A DNA stretch of 64,000 nucleotides. Source: Mobula hypostoma. Lineage: Eukaryota. Where the stretch lies: the NCBI RefSeq assembly GCF_963921235.1, contig NC_086097.1, forward strand, positions 7,750,001-7,814,000, written 5' to 3'. Made by a program: the position numbers and the translations under genes. Positions 24,234 to 55,650 of this stretch are shown here, in pieces. The first letter of the stretch is position 1. Each line of letters opens with the position of its first letter. Under the pieces are notes generated by a model. The model had not been told where the DNA came from, did not search any database, and saw only the letters and a list, made by a program, of their open reading frames with translations.

Positions 24234-24933
24234 AATAAATGCTTTAGGTTCCAATTTCTGGGGATGTGGCAGCCGTATAGTCCTAAAGCCAACTGCCCAG
24301 TCAGCATCAACACTTAACAACTGACAGGGAGTTTCCTACACTCCAGGAACTGGATATGCTGTTGCCATCACTTTCCATACCTGAAACCTTGGAGCAGATG
24401 GACTGCCAGACAGCACAATGTAGAACCAGCAAAGGGTATCAAATTATTATTTTTAACAAGAGACCTTTGTTTCTTCAATTCCAGAAATATATCTTCTCTT
24501 GGCATGTTTTTGGGAAACTTATAGTGTGATAAAACAAATATCACTGTGCACAAGTAGAAGAATAATAAACCACATTTGTAGAAAGGTGAAATAACATAAC
24601 CCACAATATTAACTTCAGTAAAAGGGCATGAGTTGACTTTTTCACATAAAGGCACAATTCAAGCTTTCTGGTCATTAAAGTGAGGTCTGCTTTTGAAAGG
24701 AATTGAATTATTTCCCACTCACTGCACCCAATATCAATACTCAACCACTCCCAAGCCAAGTATAGCACAGGCCAAATATCGATGTTAGCTCCATCCTTGT
24801 TTTTCAAGTGTTTCCTCATCAACATAGGACAGTTGAATTACTGTAGAGGTACAAAAGTAAGATGCCTTTGAGTTACACACATCGAAGTTGCTGGTGAACG
24901 CAGCAGGCCAGGCAGCATCTCTAGGAAGAGGTA

Positions 24934-24971
24934 CAGTCGACGTTTCGGGCTGAGACCCTTCGTCAGGACTA
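24934..24971 (-). ncRNA. Minimal type-I hammerhead ribozyme motif
   Basis: TAGTC-CTGACGA-AGGGTCTCAGCCC-GAAACGTC^GACTG on the minus strand. Confidence 0.8.
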
Positions 24972-25626
24972 ACTGAAGAAAGAGCTAGTAAGAAATTTGA
25001 AAGTGGGAGGGGGAGGGGGAGATCCAAAATGATAGGAGAAGACAGGAGGGGGAGGGATGGAGCCAAGAGCTGGACAGGTGATTGGCAAAAGGGATATGAG
25101 AGGATCATGGGACAGGAGGCCCAGAGAGAAGGAAAAGGGGGAGGGGGGATAAAACCCAGAGGATGGGCAAGGGGTATAGTCAGAGGGATAAAGGAGAGAG
25201 AGAGAAAGAATGTGTGTATGTAAATAAATAACGGATGGGATACGAGGGGGAGATGGGGCATTAACGGAAGTTAGAGAAGTCAATGTTCATACCATCAGGT
25301 TGGAGGCTACCCAGACGGAATATAAGGTGTTGTTCCTCCAACCTGAGTGTGGCTTCATCTTTACAGTAGAGTAGACCGTGGATAGACATATCAGAATGGG
25401 AATGGGATGTGGAATTAAAATTCCTCGTGTTTAAGTCCAGGACCAGCCTATTGGCTCAGGGTGTCTGACCCACCGAGAGAGAAGTTGTAAAGTTTGATGA
25501 CCACAGGCAGGAGTGACTTCCTGTCCAGGTCTTGGCTCCATCCTTCCCCCTCCTGTCTTCTCCTATCATTTTGGATCTCCCCCTCCCCCTCCAACTTTCA
25601 AATCTCTTACTCACTCTTCCTTCAGT

Positions 25627-25664
25627 TAGTCCTGACGAAGGGTCTCGGCCTGAAACGTCGACTG
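25627..25664 (+). ncRNA. Minimal type-I hammerhead ribozyme motif
   Basis: TAGTC-CTGACGA-AGG(GTCTCGG)CCT-GAAACGTC^GACTG; stems I and II pair; predicted cleavage after 25659. Confidence 0.85.
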
Positions 25665-25849
25665 CACCTCTTCCTAGAGATGCTGCCTGGCCTGCTGCGT
25701 TCACCAACAACTTTGATGTGTGTTGCTTGAATTTCCAGCATCTGCAGAATTCCTGTTCTATGCCTTTGAGTTATGTTAGCAACCTGAGGCATCCAGGTGT
25801 TGAACACTAGGGCAATTTGAAGGACAGTTTTTCAGTGATAATATTCATT

Positions 25850-26340
25850 AGTATCTGGAGTATTGCATACGGTTCTGGTCACTCCATTATAGGAAGGATG
25901 TTGAGGCTTTGGAGAGGGTGTAGAAGAACTTTACTAGGATGCTGCCTGATTAGAGGGCATGTGCTACAAAGAGAGGATGGACAAACTTGGACTGTTTTCT
26001 TTGGAGAGGCAGAGGCTGAGGAGAGATCTGATGAAGGTTTATAAGATTATCAGAGGCATAGATAGAATGGACAGACTCTTTTTTTCCCCCAGGGTTGAAA
26101 TACCTAATACTAGAGGGCATGCACTTCAGGTGAGAGGGAGTAATTTTAAAGGAGATGTGAGGGACAAGTCTTTCACACAGAGAGTTGATAGGTTCTTGTT
26201 TAGTAAAGATGTCAAACATTATGAAGAGAAGGTAGTGGAATGGGGTGAGAGGGATAATAAATTAGCCATGGTGGAATGGCGGAGAAAACTTGATGGACTG
26301 AATGGCCTAATTCTACTCCTATGTCTTACAGTCTTACAGT
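25850..26340 (+). mobile_element. CR1 LINE 3' fragment
   Basis: LGLFSLERQRLRRDLMKVYKIIRG motif; (TCTTACAG)2 tail. Confidence 0.85.
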
Positions 26341-27039: not shown

Positions 27040-28065
27040 GCAACACACGTAAAAGTTGCTGGTGAACGCAGCAGGCCAGACAGCATCTATAGGAAGATGT
27101 TTCGGGCTGAGACCCTTCGTCAGGACTAACTGAAAGAAACGCTAGTAAGAGATTTGAGAGGGGGAGGGGGAGATCCAAAACGATAGGAGATGGGGTACAA
27201 GTGGGAGGAAGGGCATTAACGGAAGTTAGAGAAGTCGATGTTCACGCCATCAAGTTAGAGGCTACCCAGACGGAATATAAGGTGTTATTCCTCCAACCTG
27301 AGTGTGGTTTCATCTTGACAGTAGAGGAGGCCGTGGATAGACATCAGAATGGGAATGGGACGTGGAATTAAAATGTGTGGCCACTGAGAGACCCTGCTTT
27401 CTCTGGCAGACAGAGTGTAGGTGTTCAGTGAAATGGTCTCCCAGTCTGTGCCGGGTGTCGCCAATATATAGAAGGCCACATCGGGAGCACCGGACGCAGT
27501 ATATCACCCCAGCCGACTCACAGGTGAAGTGTCGCCTCACCTAGAAGGACTGTCTGGGGCCCTGAATGGTAGGAAGTATAAGGGCATGTGTAGCACTTGT
27601 CCTGCTTACAAGGATAAGTGCTGGGAGGGAGATTAGTGGGGAGGTATGGGGGGAGGGGGAACGAATGGACAAGGGAGTCGCAAAGGGAGCGATCCCTGCG
27701 GAAAGTGGGGGGGCAGGGGAGGGAAAGATGTGCTTAGTGGTGGGATCCCATTGGAGGTGGCGGAAGTTACGGAGAATTATATGTTGGACCTGGGGGCTGC
27801 TGGGGTGGTAGGTGAGGACCAGGGGAACCCTATTCCTAGTGGGGTGGCAGGAGGATGGGGTGAGAGCAGATGTGTGTGAAATGGGAGAGATGCGTTTGAG
27901 AGCAGAGTTGATGGTGGAGGAAGGGAAACCCCTTTCTTTAAAAAAGGAGGACATCTCCTTCATCCTGGAATGAAAGGCCTCATTCCTCCCTCACCACCAT
28001 TCAGGACCCCAGACTGTCCTTCCAGGTGAGGCGACACTTCACCTGTGAGTCGGCTGGGGTGATAT
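27040..28065 (-). mobile_element. Penelope-like element with deletions and a short 5' inversion (about 27983-28065 on +)
   Basis: GIY-YIG ORF 27310-27540; the + piece TTCCTCCCTCACCACC...GGGGTGATATA is the reverse complement of 27500-27570; hammerhead at about 27097-27128 lacks the 3' strand of stem I. Confidence 0.9.
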
Positions 28066-40672: not shown

Positions 40673-42260
40673 TATTACCCTGCAGTTGACTTAAATTATC
40701 TAAATTCTGAGACTATTTTAGCTCTGAATTACTAAACAACTAAACTTGCTTGATTTTCCAAGTTGCACTTTTCTTTGATAATTCCCCTATCATATAAAAT
40801 GCAGAATGATTGTCTCAGAACAGAAGCGTGGAACAATGTGTAACACGGCTTAGATTTTAAACTCATGAGGCTGAACTGTAGCTAACAAATCCATGTGAAG
40901 ATCGATAAGAGGCTAATTGCTGGCACTAGTGTGTTCCATCTGTAAATGGGAGTCAATTTGACAATTTCCAGCTCCTCTCCAAGGTCAGATGAAACCAATA
41001 GGAAATAATACCCTCTTTATTAAAGTTGCTGCTCGGGTCTCTTGGCAGTCCCATACTTGTGAATTTCAGTGTTAAATCATCAGAAGTGCCTCTTTTAAAC
41101 TCAGACAACGCATCAAGGCTTTGCCAAATTGTGCAGAAGACCAGACCACATTTTGATGATGTACTGAAAAATATTTCTAATGACCTTTTCTCCCTTGAAC
41201 AACACCGACAAACAACATAGCACAGCTAGTTTTCTATTTGTGAAAATGCTCTGGATAATAGAGTCATAAAAATGTTATTGAGAACCACAGTCAAGAAATA
41301 GGTCCTTTGGCTCATCTAGCCCATGCCAACTCTTGCCTTAAATTTGGTTGATAGTTTCCTGTGTCTATTTATATGAACACAATTGACTGGATCTGAAGTA
41401 CACTGGATTGTAAGAAATTATATGCATATCCATATTTCATATAATTGTCTTTATTTTTACTTCATTGTTAAAAGGAAACATTGTCAATATCTATCAGTTT
41501 TTATTTAATCTAATGAGTTACAAGAATTGCTTTTCTCAGTAGAGTAACCAATCCTTTATGTAAACTGATCCTTAAAGCAAATTGGACTAATATAAAACAG
41601 AATGTGTATTTGTGAATTTGCTTTCCAATTTTAAAACAATTTTTTTTTGTGATTGCATTTTTTGTATGCATGAGTCTCGAACCACTTTGACCACCTATAT
41701 GGTTTTGCACCCCAAAAACTGGTAGACTATAAGAGTACCCTTATAAGTAATCGACAGGTCAGGCAGCATTTGTTCTGATGACAGTCTGTTGACTGAATTG
41801 TTAATTCTGTTTCTCTGCCTACAGATACAGCCTGACTTTCTGAATATTTCCAAAATTTCCTGTAATATATTTTCTTTTCACTCATAGCATAAACAAGAGA
41901 AAATCAGCAGTTGCTGGAAATCCAAGCAACACACACAGAATGCTAGAGGAACTCAGCAGGCCAGGCAGTATCTAGCAAAATACAATGATGCAGGAACTCA
42001 GCAACAAAAACAATGGTACAGAAACATGGCAACACACTAAAATGGTGCAGGAAACCCTTTGACTTACATTTTTCCATATGTGCTGCCTGGCCTTCTGAGG
42101 TCCTGCAGAATTTTGTGTGTTTTGCTTTTTCACTTTTTTTTCTATTTTTGATACTATATCATTCCTTTGACTAGAACCACATTCAACAATATATTCAAGC
42201 AACACACACAAAAATTGCTGGTGAACGCAGCAGGCCAGGCAGCATCTCTAGGATGAGGTA

Positions 42261-42298
42261 CAGTCAACGTTTCAGGCCGAGAACCTTCGTCAGGACTA
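42261..42298 (-). ncRNA. Minimal hammerhead motif (cleavage triplet GUU variant)
   Basis: TAGTC-CTGACGA-AGGTTCTCGGCCT-GAAACGTT-GACTG on the minus strand. Confidence 0.75.
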
Positions 42299-43156
42299 AC
42301 TGAAGGAAGAGCTAGTAAGAGATTTGAAAGTGGGAGGGGGTGGGGGAGATCCGAAATGATAGGAGAAGACAGGAGGGGAGGGGTGGATCTAAGAGCTGGA
42401 GGAGGGAGAGGATCGTGGGATGGGAAGCCTGGGGAGAAAGAGAAGGGGGGAGGAGAGCCCAGCGGGTGGAGAGCAGGCAAGGAGTTATACTGAGCGGGAT
42501 AGAGGGAGAGAAAAGAGAGAGAGAAAAGAAAGGGGAAAAATATATAAAAATATATATTAAATAAATAAATAAGGGATGGGATGTGAAGGGGAGGAGGGGC
42601 ATTAGCGGAAGTTAGAGAAGTCAGTGCTCATGTCATCAGGTTGGAGGCTACTCAGATGGAATATAAGGTGTTGTTCCTCCAACCTGAGTGTAGCCTCATT
42701 TTAACAGTAGAAGAGGCCGTGGATAGACATATAAGAGCGGGAATGGGACGTGTCAAGATGAAGCCACACTCAGGTTGGAGGAACAACACCTTATATTCTG
42801 TCTGAGTAGCCTCCAACCTGATGGCATGAATATTGACTTCTCAAACTTCCGCTAATGTCCCTCCTCCCCTTCATACCCTATCTTTTATTTATTTATTTGA
42901 TATATTCTTTATATATTTTTCCCCCTTTCTTTTCTCTCTCTTTTTTCTCCCTCTGTCCCTCTCACTATAACTCCTTGCCTGGTCTCCACCCGCCGAGCTC
43001 CCCTCCCCCCTTCTCTTTCTCCCCAGGCTTCCCATCCCACGATCCTCTCCCTCCTCCAGCTCTTAGATCCACCCCTCCCCTCCTGTCTTCTCCTATCATT
43101 TCGGATCTCACCCACCCCTTCCCACTTACAAATGTCTTACTAGCTCTTCTTTCAGT

Positions 43157-43194
43157 TAGTCCTGACGAAGGGTCTCGGCCCGAAACGTCGACTG
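43157..43194 (+). ncRNA. Minimal type-I hammerhead ribozyme motif
   Basis: TAGTC-CTGACGA-AGGGTCTCGGCCC-GAAACGTC^GACTG; predicted cleavage after 43189. Confidence 0.82.
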
Positions 43195-44289
43195 TACCTC
43201 TTCCTAGAGATGCTGCCTGGCCTGATGCGTTCACCAGCATTTTTTGTGTGTGTGTTGCTTGAATTTCCAGCAACTGCAGATTTCCTCATGTCAGCGTTTT
43301 TAAATTCAACAATATATTGGTGATTTCATGCCCAACGATTCAGGGGCAGTTTGTCCACCTTTGCCACGAGATGCCTGAATGGACATTGAATCTCTGAACT
43401 CTTCCTCACTACTTGTCTTTCTCTTTTTGCACTTCTTATTTAATTTGACTATACACGTATTCTTTGGACTGTAATTTGTACTGCTGCCGCATTTCGATAA
43501 ATTTCATGACATATGCTGATGATATTAAACCTGATTCTGATACAGCCCACTGATACAAATTCAAGATTAAATATCTATGTACAAACTTTTATGTGCACAG
43601 GCGCCACAGTAGCATAGCAGTTAGCGTGACACTTTTACAGCTCGAGGCAGCAGAAATATAAAAATTTACACAGCACCAAATGAAGAAAAGATTACATGGA
43701 TGGTAGGGGTACGGAGGGCTATGGTCCCAGCACATGTCGATGAGACTAGGCAGCTTAAATGGTTTGGCATGGACTAGGTGGGTTGAGGACCTGCTTCTGT
43801 ACTATATTTCTTTGTGACTCTATTAGGAAGAATGTTAGAGTTTTGCCTGTGAAAAAGGCTTGAAGAAGGATTCTGAAGGAGAAAATGAATTCCTGAGTCT
43901 AGTGTAAGTTAAAATAGAGGAAGAGTTGAAGGGAGACTGAATCACCCTTGCTCATTTTCCTTGTAGTGGAAGTTGCTGAGGGGGATCTGATTGTGGTAAA
44001 ACAAATTGTTAGGGGATAAGACATATTTCCCCATTGTAGGTGAGGCAGGAGGATTAAGGTGAAATGGAAAAGGTTCACAAGGAATCTTAAGAAGAATATT
44101 TTCCTCAGGGTGGTTAGAAGCTGACAACAGTCAAGAAACATCTGGATCCCCGTAAAAACATATGGGGGTAGGAAGTTTAAATGATTTGGCATGGACTAGA
44201 TGGGTGAAAGGCTTGTGTTGTATTTTTCTATGACTCTGTGACTCTATATGCGTGTGATAAATTGGAATAGATTAGATTGGTACTTGTTT

Positions 44290-54069: not shown

Positions 54070-55650
54070 CACAGGTGAGAAGACAGCTGAAACGTCTCAA
54101 CACAGGTGAGAAGGCAGCTGAAACGTCTCAACCCAAGCAAGGCTGCAGGACCGGATGGTGTCAGTACCAGGGTGCTCAAAGCCTGTGCCCTTCAGCTGTG
54201 TGGAGTACTTCGCCGTGTATTCAACCTGAGCCTGAGGCTCCGGAGGGTTCCTGTGCTGTGGAAGACGTCCTGCCTCGTCCCTGTGCCGAAGACGCCGCGC
54301 CCCAGCGGCCTCAATGACTACAGACCGGTGGCATTGACCTCCCGCATCATGAAGACCCTGGAGAGACTTGTTCTGGAGCTGCTCCGACCTATGGTCAGGC
54401 CACACTTAGATCCCCTCCAGTTCGCCTACCAGCCTCGACTAGGAGTTGAGGATGCAATCGTCTTCCTGTTGAACCGTGTCTACGCCCACCTGGACAAGCC
54501 AGCGAGCACTGTGAGGGTCATGTTTTTTGACTTCTCCAGTGTGTTCAACACCATCCACCCTGCTCTGCTGGGGGAGAAGCTGACAGCGATGCAGGTGGAT
54601 GCTTCCCTGGTATCATGGATTCTTGATTACCTGACTGGCAGACCACAGTACATGTGCTTGCAACACTGTGTATCTGACAGAGTGATCAGCAGCATTGGGG
54701 CTCAACATGGGACTGTCTTGTCTCCCTTTCTCTTCACCATTTACACCTCGGACTTCAACTACTGCACAGAGTCTTGTCATCTTCAGAAGTTTTCGGATGA
54801 CTCTGCCATAGTTGGATGCATCAGCAAGGAAGATGAGGCTGAGTACAGGGCTACGGTAGGAAACTTTGTCACATGGTGTGAGCAGAATTATCTACAGCTT
54901 AATGTGAAGAAGACTAAGGAGCTGGTGGTAGACCTGCGGAGAGCTAAGGTACCGGTGACCCCTGTTTCCATCCAGGGGGTCAGTGTGGACATAGTGGAGG
55001 ATTACAAATACCTGGGGATACGAATTGACAATAAACTGGACTGGTCAAAGAACACTGAGGCTGTCTATAAGAAGGGTCAGAGCCGTCTCTATTTCCTGAG
55101 GAGACTGAGGTCCTTTAACATCTGCTGGACGATGCTGAGGATGTTCTACGAGTCTGTGGTGGCCAGTGCTATCATGTTTGCTGTTGTGTGCTGGGGCAGC
55201 AGGCTGAGGGTGGCAGACACCAACAGAATCAACAAACTCATTCGTAAGGCCAGTGATGTCGTGGGGATGGAACTGGACTCTCTCACGGTGGTGTCTGAAA
55301 AGAGGATGCTGTGTAAGTTGCATACCATCTTGCTCAATGTCTTCCATCCACTACATAATGTACTGGGTGGGCACAGGAGTACATTCAGCCAGAGACTCAT
55401 TCCACCGAGATGCAGCACTGAGCGTCATAGGAAGTCATTCCTGCCTGTGGCCATCAAACATTACAACTCCGCCCTTGGAGGGTCAGACACCCTGAGCCAA
55501 TAGGCTGGTCCTGGACTTATTTCATAATTTACTGACATAATTTACATATTACTATTTAACTATTTATGGTTCTATTAATATTTATTATTTATGGAGCAAC
55601 TGTAACGAAAACCAATTTCCCCCGGGATTAATAAAGCATGACTATGATAA
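54070..55650 (+). mobile_element. Young 5'-truncated Rex1/Babar LINE
   Basis: Open RT ORF, AT-rich 3' UTR, AATAAA at 55630-55635; 31-bp tandem duplication at the 5' junction. Confidence 0.93.
54106..55503 (+). CDS. Rex1/Babar reverse transcriptase (ORF2 C-terminal part, 465 aa open)
   Basis: KAAGPDGV, DYRPVALTS, LDPLQFAYQP, FFDFSS, GTVLSPFLF, KFSDDS, YKYLG motifs without stops. Confidence 0.92.
   Translation: MRRQLKRLNPSKAAGPDGVSTRVLKACALQLCGVLRRVFNLSLRLRRVPVLWKTSCLVPVPKTPRPSGLNDYRPVALTSRIMKTLERLVLELLRPMVRPHLDPLQFAYQPRLGVEDAIVFLLNRVYAHLDKPASTVRVMFFDFSSVFNTIHPALLGEKLTAMQVDASLVSWILDYLTGRPQYMCLQHCVSDRVISSIGAQHGTVLSPFLFTIYTSDFNYCTESCHLQKFSDDSAIVGCISKEDEAEYRATVGNFVTWCEQNYLQLNVKKTKELVVDLRRAKVPVTPVSIQGVSVDIVEDYKYLGIRIDNKLDWSKNTEAVYKKGQSRLYFLRRLRSFNICWTMLRMFYESVVASAIMFAVVCWGSRLRVADTNRINKLIRKASDVVGMELDSLTVVSEKRMLCKLHTILLNVFHPLHNVLGGHRSTFSQRLIPPRCSTERHRKSFLPVAIKHYNSALGGSDTLSQ

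What the first reader, a model, noticed from the sequence alone, without database searches (positions are those of the whole stretch)
24862..25773. Chimeric insertion: two Penelope arms enclosing a captured Rex1 LINE 3' end
Seen: inside one 14-bp TSD (ATGCCTTTGAGTTA) lie a minus Penelope arm, a 14-nt plus tail scrap (AATTCCTCGTGTTT), about 90 nt matching the reverse complement of the Rex1 ORF end/3' UTR start at about 55429-55519, and a plus Penelope arm joined through a CCT microhomology (25520-25522). The Rex1 piece lacks its own AT-rich 3' tail. Inference: the Penelope RT jumped among several RNAs, including a foreign LINE RNA, during one integration. This would be a route for capturing unrelated transcripts.
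Basis: partly seen in the sequence, partly recalled or inferred. Interest (0 to 1): 0.8.

Follow-up and report, generated by a model that had tools for sequence, protein, structure and literature searches.

The report
Penelope insertion carrying a second-hand LINE fragment
A jumping-gene insertion made of two back-to-back Penelope pieces does enclose a scrap of an unrelated LINE element, but that scrap was most likely copied along with an older Penelope fragment already sitting inside a LINE copy elsewhere in the genome, which is a known kind of hitch-hiking.

Summary
There is an exact 14-bp target duplication (24862-24875 and 25760-25773), a minus Penelope (PLE) arm, a 14-nt plus tail scrap, a 90-nt antisense LINE ("Rex1") piece, and a plus PLE arm joined through CCT.

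The layout is the canonical PLE inverted pair, with one arm lacking the ~36-nt tail and one carrying it. 17 of 18 other sampled pairs follow the same rule.

The block "PLE arm + 14 nt + LINE piece" was not assembled at this site. It occurs at four other loci at 92-94% identity. There the LINE continues on both sides, and the PLE has its own 12-bp duplication inside the LINE 3'UTR.

The two arms come from different PLE subfamilies (A 21/21 sites; B 6/6 sites). Only the LINE/plus-arm joint is unique to this locus.

Best reading (~0.6): this was one integration in which each DNA strand primed on a different RNA. One was an active PLE RNA. The other was a read-through transcript of a fossil PLE nested in a LINE, so 90 nt of upstream LINE was carried along (5' transduction).

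Contigs from two related organisms appear to have the site empty.

PLE transduction is already in print, so interest is modest.

The parts
24862..24875 (.). Left copy of the 14-bp target-site duplication ATGCCTTTGAGTTA
   Evidence: The left flank is single copy. Contigs of runs X9 and X10 stop fitting at 24861 and 24872 and then run on.
24876..25421 (-). Inverted, 5'-truncated PLE arm of subfamily A. It holds the ORF end and the 3' region and lacks the terminal ~36-nt tail.
   Evidence: A-state at 21 of 21 diagnostic sites. 14/540 substitutions against the A majority. The same arm occurs in L002-L005.
25419..25432 (+). 14-nt scrap identical to the last 14 nt of the PLE tail. It overlaps the arm by 3 nt (AAT) and is inherited from the donor-type locus.
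   Evidence: Present at the same place in L002-L004 (exact) and L005 (2 mismatches).
25433..25522 (-). LINE ('Rex1'-like) piece: the last 24 codons, the stop, and 16-17 nt of 3'UTR. Its first 12 nt (AAGTCCAGGACC) are the TSD of the donor-type insertion.
   Evidence: It shares the variant pair ..CCCACC.. / ..GATGACC.. with all 4 donor-type loci and with 0 of 16 other LINE copies.
25520..25759 (+). Direct, 5'-truncated PLE arm of subfamily B with a full tail, joined to the LINE piece through CCT (25520-25522).
   Evidence: 97-99% identical to 40 other copies. B-state at 6 of 6 diagnostic sites. The junction is unique in the genome.
25760..25773 (.). Right copy of the 14-bp target-site duplication
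   Evidence: The right flank is single copy.
55429..55519 (+). Homologous stretch of a LINE copy in the window (ORF end and start of 3'UTR). It is used as the reference for the captured piece and is not its source.
   Evidence: The ORF 54091-55503 hits RVT_1 at 3e-22.

Best explanation
This is one canonical Penelope-like (PLE) integration.

Proposed steps:
1. The PLE enzyme cut both strands of a single-copy target 14 bp apart, and each 3' end primed reverse transcription.
2. The bottom strand started at the tail-end start site of an active subfamily-B PLE RNA and made 240 nt (the plus arm).
3. The top strand started at the internal, tail-less start site of a different RNA.
4. The two cDNAs paired at CCT/AGG and were completed.

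The second RNA was a read-through transcript of a donor-type locus. In that locus an older subfamily-A PLE fragment (a tail-less arm plus a 14-nt tail scrap) sits, in the same orientation, inside a 5'-truncated LINE copy just after the LINE stop codon. Synthesis ran through the ~545-nt PLE fragment and its old 5' junction, then 90 nt into the upstream LINE sequence. That is a 5' transduction.

Shown:
- the anatomy of the insertion;
- the donor-type loci;
- the subfamily discordance of the arms;
- the uniqueness of the last junction;
- an apparently empty site in two relatives.

Inferred:
- that the template was RNA;
- that both arms were made in one event.
For: 1. The block 24875-25522 recurs as one piece at 92-94% identity in L002-L005. 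The junction pattern occurs 5 times in the genome, the window plus these 4, with 0 in the reversed-pattern control.
2. At those loci the LINE continues on both sides and AAGTCCAGGACC is duplicated around [tail-less arm + 14-nt tail]. An intact LINE copy has that sequence once.
3. The LINE piece shares a two-site variant combination with 4 of 4 donor-type loci and 0 of 16 other copies.
4. The minus arm ends 6-7 nt inside the donor-type arm's 3' end, so such a template contains everything that was copied.
5. Architecture: in 17 of 18 evaluable sampled pairs, and in the window's second pair, one arm is tailed and the other tail-less. Here the tail-less arm is the one built on a template that has no tail.
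6. The arms are fully discordant (A 21/21 versus B 6/6). Among 19 other sampled pairs, 16 are concordant, 3 are mixed and none is fully discordant.
7. The LINE/plus-arm junction is unique, the flanks are single copy, and one 14-bp TSD bounds everything.
8. One search indicates empty sites. The X9 contig (242 nt, depth 5.1) fits 24699-24861 and has 79 letters left. Depth in bin 25796-25849 is 4.06, which is 43/54 x 5.1, exactly as expected if the rest lies on 25760-25838. X10 gives a similar picture.
9. Published biochemistry (PMC11167929, main text read): a PLE protein cleaves and extends both strands, starts reverse transcription at two internal sites that bracket the tail, and is predicted to be a dimer.
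Against: - None of the four donor-type loci is the exact progenitor. They share one substitution and a 3-nt deletion that the window arm lacks. Apart from the junctions and the two LINE variants, no derived PLE substitution is shared with the window arm.
- The window LINE piece differs from them at 4 of 93 sites.
- The donor-type LINE is a ~400-bp 5'-truncated fragment with no promoter of its own, so an outside promoter must be assumed.
- No RNA evidence was obtained.
- Dating cannot prove simultaneity. Private substitutions are 14/540 in the minus arm and 3/203 in the plus arm. In the shared 203 columns the counts are 4 versus 3.
- The state of the closest relative (organism B, flanks ~0.6% different) could not be read.
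- The empty sites were inferred from piece coordinates and depths, not from a printed joint.
Confidence: 0.6

Rival explanations
1. DNA repair rather than retrotransposition of a chimeric RNA. An ordinary subfamily-B inverted pair inserted here. A later break at the palindrome centre was repaired by copying from a donor-type locus (synthesis-dependent strand annealing) through the PLE arm into the 14 nt and 90 nt of LINE. The end was then joined at CCT.
For: - Inverted repeats without a spacer are break-prone (general knowledge, recalled).
- The arms are asymmetric, ~545 versus 240 nt.
- The last junction uses a 3-nt microhomology.
- The donor-type sequence exists as DNA at 4 loci.
Against: A-type states run through the whole minus arm, up to diagnostic site 483 of 540, which is within 57 nt of the TSD. 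Almost the entire original arm would therefore have had to be resected and recopied. No trace of a B-type minus arm remains.
Confidence: 0.15
2. Two separate PLE insertions. First the chimeric minus unit (arm + 14 nt + LINE piece) inserted with the 14-bp TSD. Later a 240-nt B-type arm landed exactly between the LINE piece and the right TSD copy, making no duplication of its own.
For: - The arms belong to different subfamilies.
- The minus arm carries somewhat more private changes (2.6%) than the plus arm (1.5%).
- Tail-less arms with no detectable partner within the ~3.5-kb loci fetched exist in the sample, for example L037 and L057.
Against: - It needs a second hit at the exact base of the old junction with no TSD and no deletion.
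- The result mimics the canonical tailed-plus-tail-less pair seen in 17 of 18 sampled pairs.
- The age difference is not significant: 4 versus 3 changes in the shared 203 columns.
- Two relatives appear to lack both parts.
Confidence: 0.12
3. During this one integration the RT jumped de novo from PLE RNA to a tail scrap, then to a free LINE RNA, then to another PLE RNA.
For: - A single TSD bounds the whole insertion.
- The LINE piece has no 3' end.
- There is microhomology at the last junction.
- Template jumps have been proposed for PLEs (PMC3846280, passages read).
Against: The identical arm/14-nt/LINE junctions occur at four other loci where they are explained by a simple nested insertion with its own TSD. 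Independent re-creation of two junctions to the base is not credible.
Confidence: 0.04

Closest known systems
Canonical EN+ Penelope-like element insertions: inverted 5'-truncated copy, 30-40-bp 'tail' at one end, TSD (Craig et al. 2021, PMC8557442, passages read; Frangieh et al. 2024, PMC11167929, main text read)
   Same: - Head-to-head arms with their 3' ends facing outward.
- One arm tailed (~36 nt) and one tail-less.
- One TSD.
- A microhomology joint.
- Consistent with cleavage and extension of both strands and with two RT start sites.
   Different: The two arms come from different subfamilies, and the tail-less arm runs out of PLE sequence into 104 nt of other sequence. In 14 of 20 other sampled pairs the arms meet directly, with a gap or overlap of no more than 2 nt.
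PLE-mediated transduction or capture of unrelated sequence between terminal repeats, bounded by TSDs (Arkhipova, Yushenova & Rodriguez 2013, PMC3846280, passages read; restated in PMC6431247, passages read)
   Same: - Non-PLE sequence is carried inside a TSD-bounded PLE insertion.
- PLE terminal sequence acts as the cis element, with the enzyme supplied in trans.
   Different: - In rotifers, host genes lie between two direct pLTRs.
- Here, in what earlier notes of this scan call a cartilaginous fish (not tested here), a 90-nt LINE piece sits at the inner end of the inverted arm.
- Donor-type loci that explain its origin can be identified.
L1/SVA 5' transduction and L1 twin priming (recalled from general knowledge; no paper read here)
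   Same: - Upstream flank of a source copy is co-transcribed and reverse transcribed with the element.
- Both strands of the target prime, giving an inversion sealed by microhomology.
   Different: - In L1 twin priming, one RNA gives two non-overlapping segments.
- Here the arms overlap by 204 nt and come from two different templates.
- The transducing copy is a dead fragment mobilised in trans.
Template-switch chimeras such as U6-L1 (recalled; no paper read here)
   Same: Sequences of two unrelated transcripts lie in one TSD-bounded retro-insertion.
   Different: Here the chimeric junctions pre-exist in genomic DNA elsewhere, so no switch between separate RNAs is needed for them.

Membership tests
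Penelope-like element (EN+) | Single ORF with RT followed by a C-terminal GIY-YIG endonuclease | tested here: inconclusive
   GIY-YIG scores 19.7 bits, E 0.0011, below Pfam's cut-off of 22.6, on a longer copy (L062). Pfam finds no RT on L068, although a YIDD motif is visible upstream.
Penelope-like element (EN+) | Inverted 5'-truncated partner copies bounded by one TSD | tested here: met
   This locus. The second pair in the window has a 12-bp TSD ATTCAACAATAT. About 19 pairs occur among 58 sampled loci.
Penelope-like element (EN+) | 30-40-bp tail present at only one end | tested here: met
   The plus arm carries ~36 nt beyond the point where the minus arm stops. 17 of 18 evaluable sampled pairs have one tailed and one tail-less arm.
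Penelope-like element (EN+) | Hammerhead ribozyme motif in the terminal repeat | tested here: inconclusive
   CTGACGA...GAAAC GTCGAC is visible in both arms (reading it as a hammerhead core is recalled). Rfam gives no hammerhead match at E<=1.
Rex1 clade of LINEs | LINE-type RT ORF | tested here: met
   RVT_1 at 3.2e-22 on window 54091-55503.
Rex1 clade of LINEs | Phylogenetic placement within Rex1/Babar | not tested
No TE reference library was available. I can vouch only for 'LINE'.
5' transduction from a nested source copy | A locus elsewhere where the element and the transduced flank are contiguous | tested here: met
   L002-L005.
5' transduction from a nested source copy | An identified progenitor that shares all private changes | tested here: not met
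   The four loci share changes that the window copy lacks. The true source is not among them or is not in the assembly.
5' transduction from a nested source copy | RNA intermediate | not testable with these tools
   The only read-laying run was used on DNA contigs.
   The arm/14-nt/LINE junction pattern occurs at 5 places. Only the LINE/plus-arm junction is unique.

The most novel reading that the evidence does not exclude
The locus is a natural two-colour experiment on PLE integration. One arm is a subfamily-B copy with a tail. The other is a subfamily-A fossil dragged in with its LINE flank. If both were made in one event, the two strands of a PLE integration are reverse transcribed from two separate RNA molecules. 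It would also follow that the enzyme accepts in trans any transcript holding ~550 nt of PLE 3' sequence, even without the tail, and copies whatever lies upstream. This would be in-genome support for the dimer, both-strand model proposed from in vitro work, and a general route for PLEs to scatter pieces of other transcripts.
Probability: 0.45. Interest if true: 0.5.

Novelty: new member of a known kind. Interest (0 to 1): 0.33.

Why it matters
The finding shows how an apparent multi-template chimera can be resolved by finding donor-type loci. Here that turns three supposed RT jumps into one ordinary junction plus inherited ones.

For PLE biology it offers a dated, TSD-bounded case in which the two arms of an inverted pair have demonstrably different templates. 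This bears on the unresolved question of how PLEs make their inverted structures.

It does not establish a new capture mechanism. PLE transduction of foreign sequence is already in print (PMC3846280, PMC6431247).

Tried and rejected
- Rfam scan of 24700-25900 at E<=1 gave no hammerhead family, only a chance PrrB_RsmZ hit at E 0.25.
- Pfam on two frames of a longer PLE copy gave nothing.
- Dating the arms to separate one event from two was not decisive.
- I looked for derived substitutions shared by the minus arm and the four donor-type loci in the PLE part. There were none clear, so no progenitor could be named.
- ORFs in a donor-type locus and 4.5 kb beside it are degenerate. The LINE there is only a ~400-bp fragment, so a LINE-promoter-driven transcript is not supported.
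- Tail-less single arms L037 and L057 were inspected for tail scraps or TSDs, and nothing clear was found.
- Organism B (run X5): no listed contig bridges either junction, so its state is unknown.
- Earlier notes of the scan near this place and by keywords returned nothing.
I could not establish whether those loci are segmental duplicates or parts of a larger repeat, beyond the 2.7-3.1 kb they share.

Full report
**Observation.** The window is G000:C1:7750001-7814000 of a 3.48-Gb assembly. Earlier notes of this scan call it a cartilaginous-fish genome; I did not test that.
- ATGCCTTTGAGTTA stands at 24862-24875 and again at 25760-25773.
- Between the two copies lie 884 nt, made of four parts.
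  - A minus-oriented PLE 3' part runs from 24876 to about 25421. It holds the ORF end ...LEEQHLIFRLGSLQPDGMNIDFSNFR* and the 3' region.
  - The 14 nt AATTCCTCGTGTTT follow at 25419-25432.
  - A 90-nt stretch at 25433-25522 matches 55519-55429 in reverse complement, 91% over 91 nt, E 7e-32. It encodes the last 24 residues of a LINE ORF, the stop, and 16-17 nt of 3'UTR.
  - A plus-oriented PLE arm covers 25520-25759.
- The LINE ORF at 54091-55503 hits RVT_1 at 3e-22. 'Rex1' as a clade name was not tested.
- Both flanks are single copy.
- Contigs of a run with the same organism label cross both outer junctions without a difference.

**The architecture is the normal one for this PLE family.**
- The plus arm ends in a ~36-nt tail (...TTGCTTGAATTTCCAGCATCTGCAGAATTCCTGTTCT). 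The minus arm stops just before it (...GATGTGTG next to the TSD).
- Other copies in the window end either with the tail (canonical end ...GCAGAATTCCTCGTGTTT) or without it.
- I sampled 58 loci fetched by similarity to either arm.
  - Outward-facing inverted pairs are frequent in this sample.
  - In 17 of 18 pairs whose two 3' ends could be read, one arm is tailed and the other tail-less. L079 is the exception.
- The window's second pair (42193-43286, an older family) is the same: 12-bp TSD ATTCAACAATAT, tail-less left arm, tailed right arm, and arms meeting directly near 42751.
- This matches published descriptions of inverted 5'-truncated copies with a 30-40-bp tail at one end (PMC8557442, passages).
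- It also matches biochemistry showing that a PLE protein cleaves and extends both strands, starts reverse transcription at two internal sites bracketing the tail, and is predicted to be a dimer (PMC11167929, main text).

**The key result.**
- A search of the genome with 25390-25560 found four loci (L002-L005: one on contig C91, three on C9). They match through the PLE arm end, the 14 nt and the whole LINE piece.
- Alignment shows that the entire block 24875-25522 is there at 92-94% identity.
- An exact-pattern search for the arm/14-nt/LINE junction, allowing up to 3 mismatches, finds 5 places in the genome: the window and these four. The reversed control finds 0.
- In the four loci the LINE sequence continues on both sides. 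AAGTCCAGGACC is duplicated around [tail-less arm + 14-nt tail scrap]. Intact LINE copies have that sequence once.
- These loci therefore hold an ordinary PLE insertion in the same orientation as the LINE. It has a 12-bp TSD just after the LINE stop codon, and its tailed partner arm is only 14 nt long.
- The scrap overlaps the arm by 3 nt. The genuine PLE sequence upstream of the truncation point is ...GGCCACACATTTTAATTCC... in most copies.
- The window's LINE piece shares the variant pair ..CCCACC.. / ..GATGACC.. with 4 of 4 of these loci and with 0 of 16 other LINE copies.
- The junction between the LINE piece and the plus arm occurs once in the genome.

**Two different templates.**
- I defined 21 sites that separate two PLE subfamilies in the sample. 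The minus arm and the four loci carry the A state: the minus arm at 21 of 21, the loci at 20-21 of 21. The plus arm carries the B state at all 6 sites it covers.
- The plus arm is 97-99% identical to 40 other copies. The minus arm is 93-95% identical to its best 40.
- Among 19 other sampled pairs, 16 have concordant arms (in L083 even the rare states match), 3 are mixed or mosaic (L054, L084, L086), and none is fully discordant.
- The arm that is tail-less here is the one whose template type has no tail. It ends 6-7 nt inside the donor-type arm's 3' end, so such a template contains all that was copied.

**Age and relatives.**
- Private substitutions are 14/540 (2.6%) for the minus arm against the A majority and 3/203 (1.5%) for the plus arm against the B majority.
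- In the shared 203 columns the counts are 4 versus 3. The panel medians there are 2.0% (A) and 1.5% (B).
- This neither proves nor excludes simultaneity.
- Run X9 (organism C):
  - A 242-nt contig of depth 5.1 fits 24699-24861 and has 79 letters left.
  - The depth in bin 25796-25849 is 4.06, which is 43/54 of 5.1.
  - That is exactly the value expected if the rest lies on 25760-25838.
  - This would be a precise empty site with one copy of the 14 bp.
- Run X10 (organism D):
  - An 1106-nt contig of depth 8.89 fits 24500-24872 and has 108 letters left.
  - A piece of the same depth covers 25846.
  - The numbers fit an empty site plus an 11-nt gap.
- These are inferences from coordinates and depths, because the joint itself was not among the rows printed.
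- Neither relative shows a LINE fragment already at the site.
- The closest relative (organism B) could not be read.

**Mechanism.** The best reading is one integration with two RNAs, as laid out in the Best explanation section. The LINE piece came in as 5' flank on a read-through transcript of a fossil PLE nested in a LINE fragment.
- Weak points:
  - The donor-type LINE is only ~400 bp (257 nt upstream and ~140 nt downstream of the PLE) and lacks a promoter.
  - The four loci share 2.7-3.1 kb with each other and carry changes the window copy lacks, so none is the progenitor.
  - No RNA was examined.
- Rivals:
  - Break repair templated by a donor-type locus. It is weakened because A states run to within 57 nt of the TSD.
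  - Two insertions at the same base. This requires a coincidence.
  - De novo jumps. This is contradicted by the pre-existing junctions.

**How common is it?**
- In 20 other sampled pairs the arms meet with a gap or overlap of no more than 2 nt in 14.
- Six have fillers of 8-74 nt. At least four of these (L053, L054, L058, L086) are visibly PLE-derived. L063 and L079 are undetermined.
- One locus (L058) has an unexplained 318-nt non-PLE stretch between two plus pieces.
- An identified foreign TE piece was seen only here. The sample is small and was chosen by similarity to the arms.

**Novelty.**
- Capture of unrelated sequence inside TSD-bounded PLE insertions, and PLE transduction, are in print (PMC3846280, passages; PMC6431247, passages).
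- My two searches listed no paper on a PLE carrying a LINE piece via a nested donor or on discordant arms. Only listings and the named passages were read.
- This is a new, well-resolved example of a known kind, with some mechanistic value.

Noticed in passing
window 42181-43316: A second TSD-bounded PLE inverted pair of an older family (77-79% identical to the arms studied). It has a 12-bp TSD ATTCAACAATAT, a tail-less left arm, a tailed right arm, and arms that meet directly near 42751 with no spacer.
   Followed up: yes
L002-L005 (C91:69.83 Mb; C9:11.86, 188.95, 189.22 Mb): The four loci with the PLE nested in a LINE fragment share 2.7-3.1 kb at 94-95% identity, including non-LINE flanks. 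They therefore multiplied as DNA or as part of a larger repeat. Homology to L003 and L004 stops at a different left-hand point in L002 (~415) and in L005 (~270).
   Followed up: partly
L058:2240-2557: A 318-nt stretch with no match in any other fetched locus lies between two plus-oriented PLE pieces of a complex inverted insertion. It may be another captured sequence or a nested insertion.
   Followed up: partly
L083:1526-2654; also L036, L042, L043, L058: Several pairs join at near-perfect palindromes or short microhomologies. In L083 both arms carry the same rare variants, as if copied from one source.
   Followed up: partly
window 54091-55650: A LINE copy with an open 470-codon frame (RVT_1 plus a hit to Pfam ALKBH8_N, 2.6e-11) and a ~140-nt AT-rich 3'UTR.
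   Followed up: partly
window 25850-26100: The right flank runs into another very high-copy repeat about 75 nt after the TSD. Summed contig depth there is ~1e5 in all four runs.
   Followed up: no
window 27040-27374; L043:1004-1231: A PLE copy in the window has an internal deletion (query 178 to 373). Another copy, in L043, has a 228-nt foreign insertion inside one arm.
   Followed up: no
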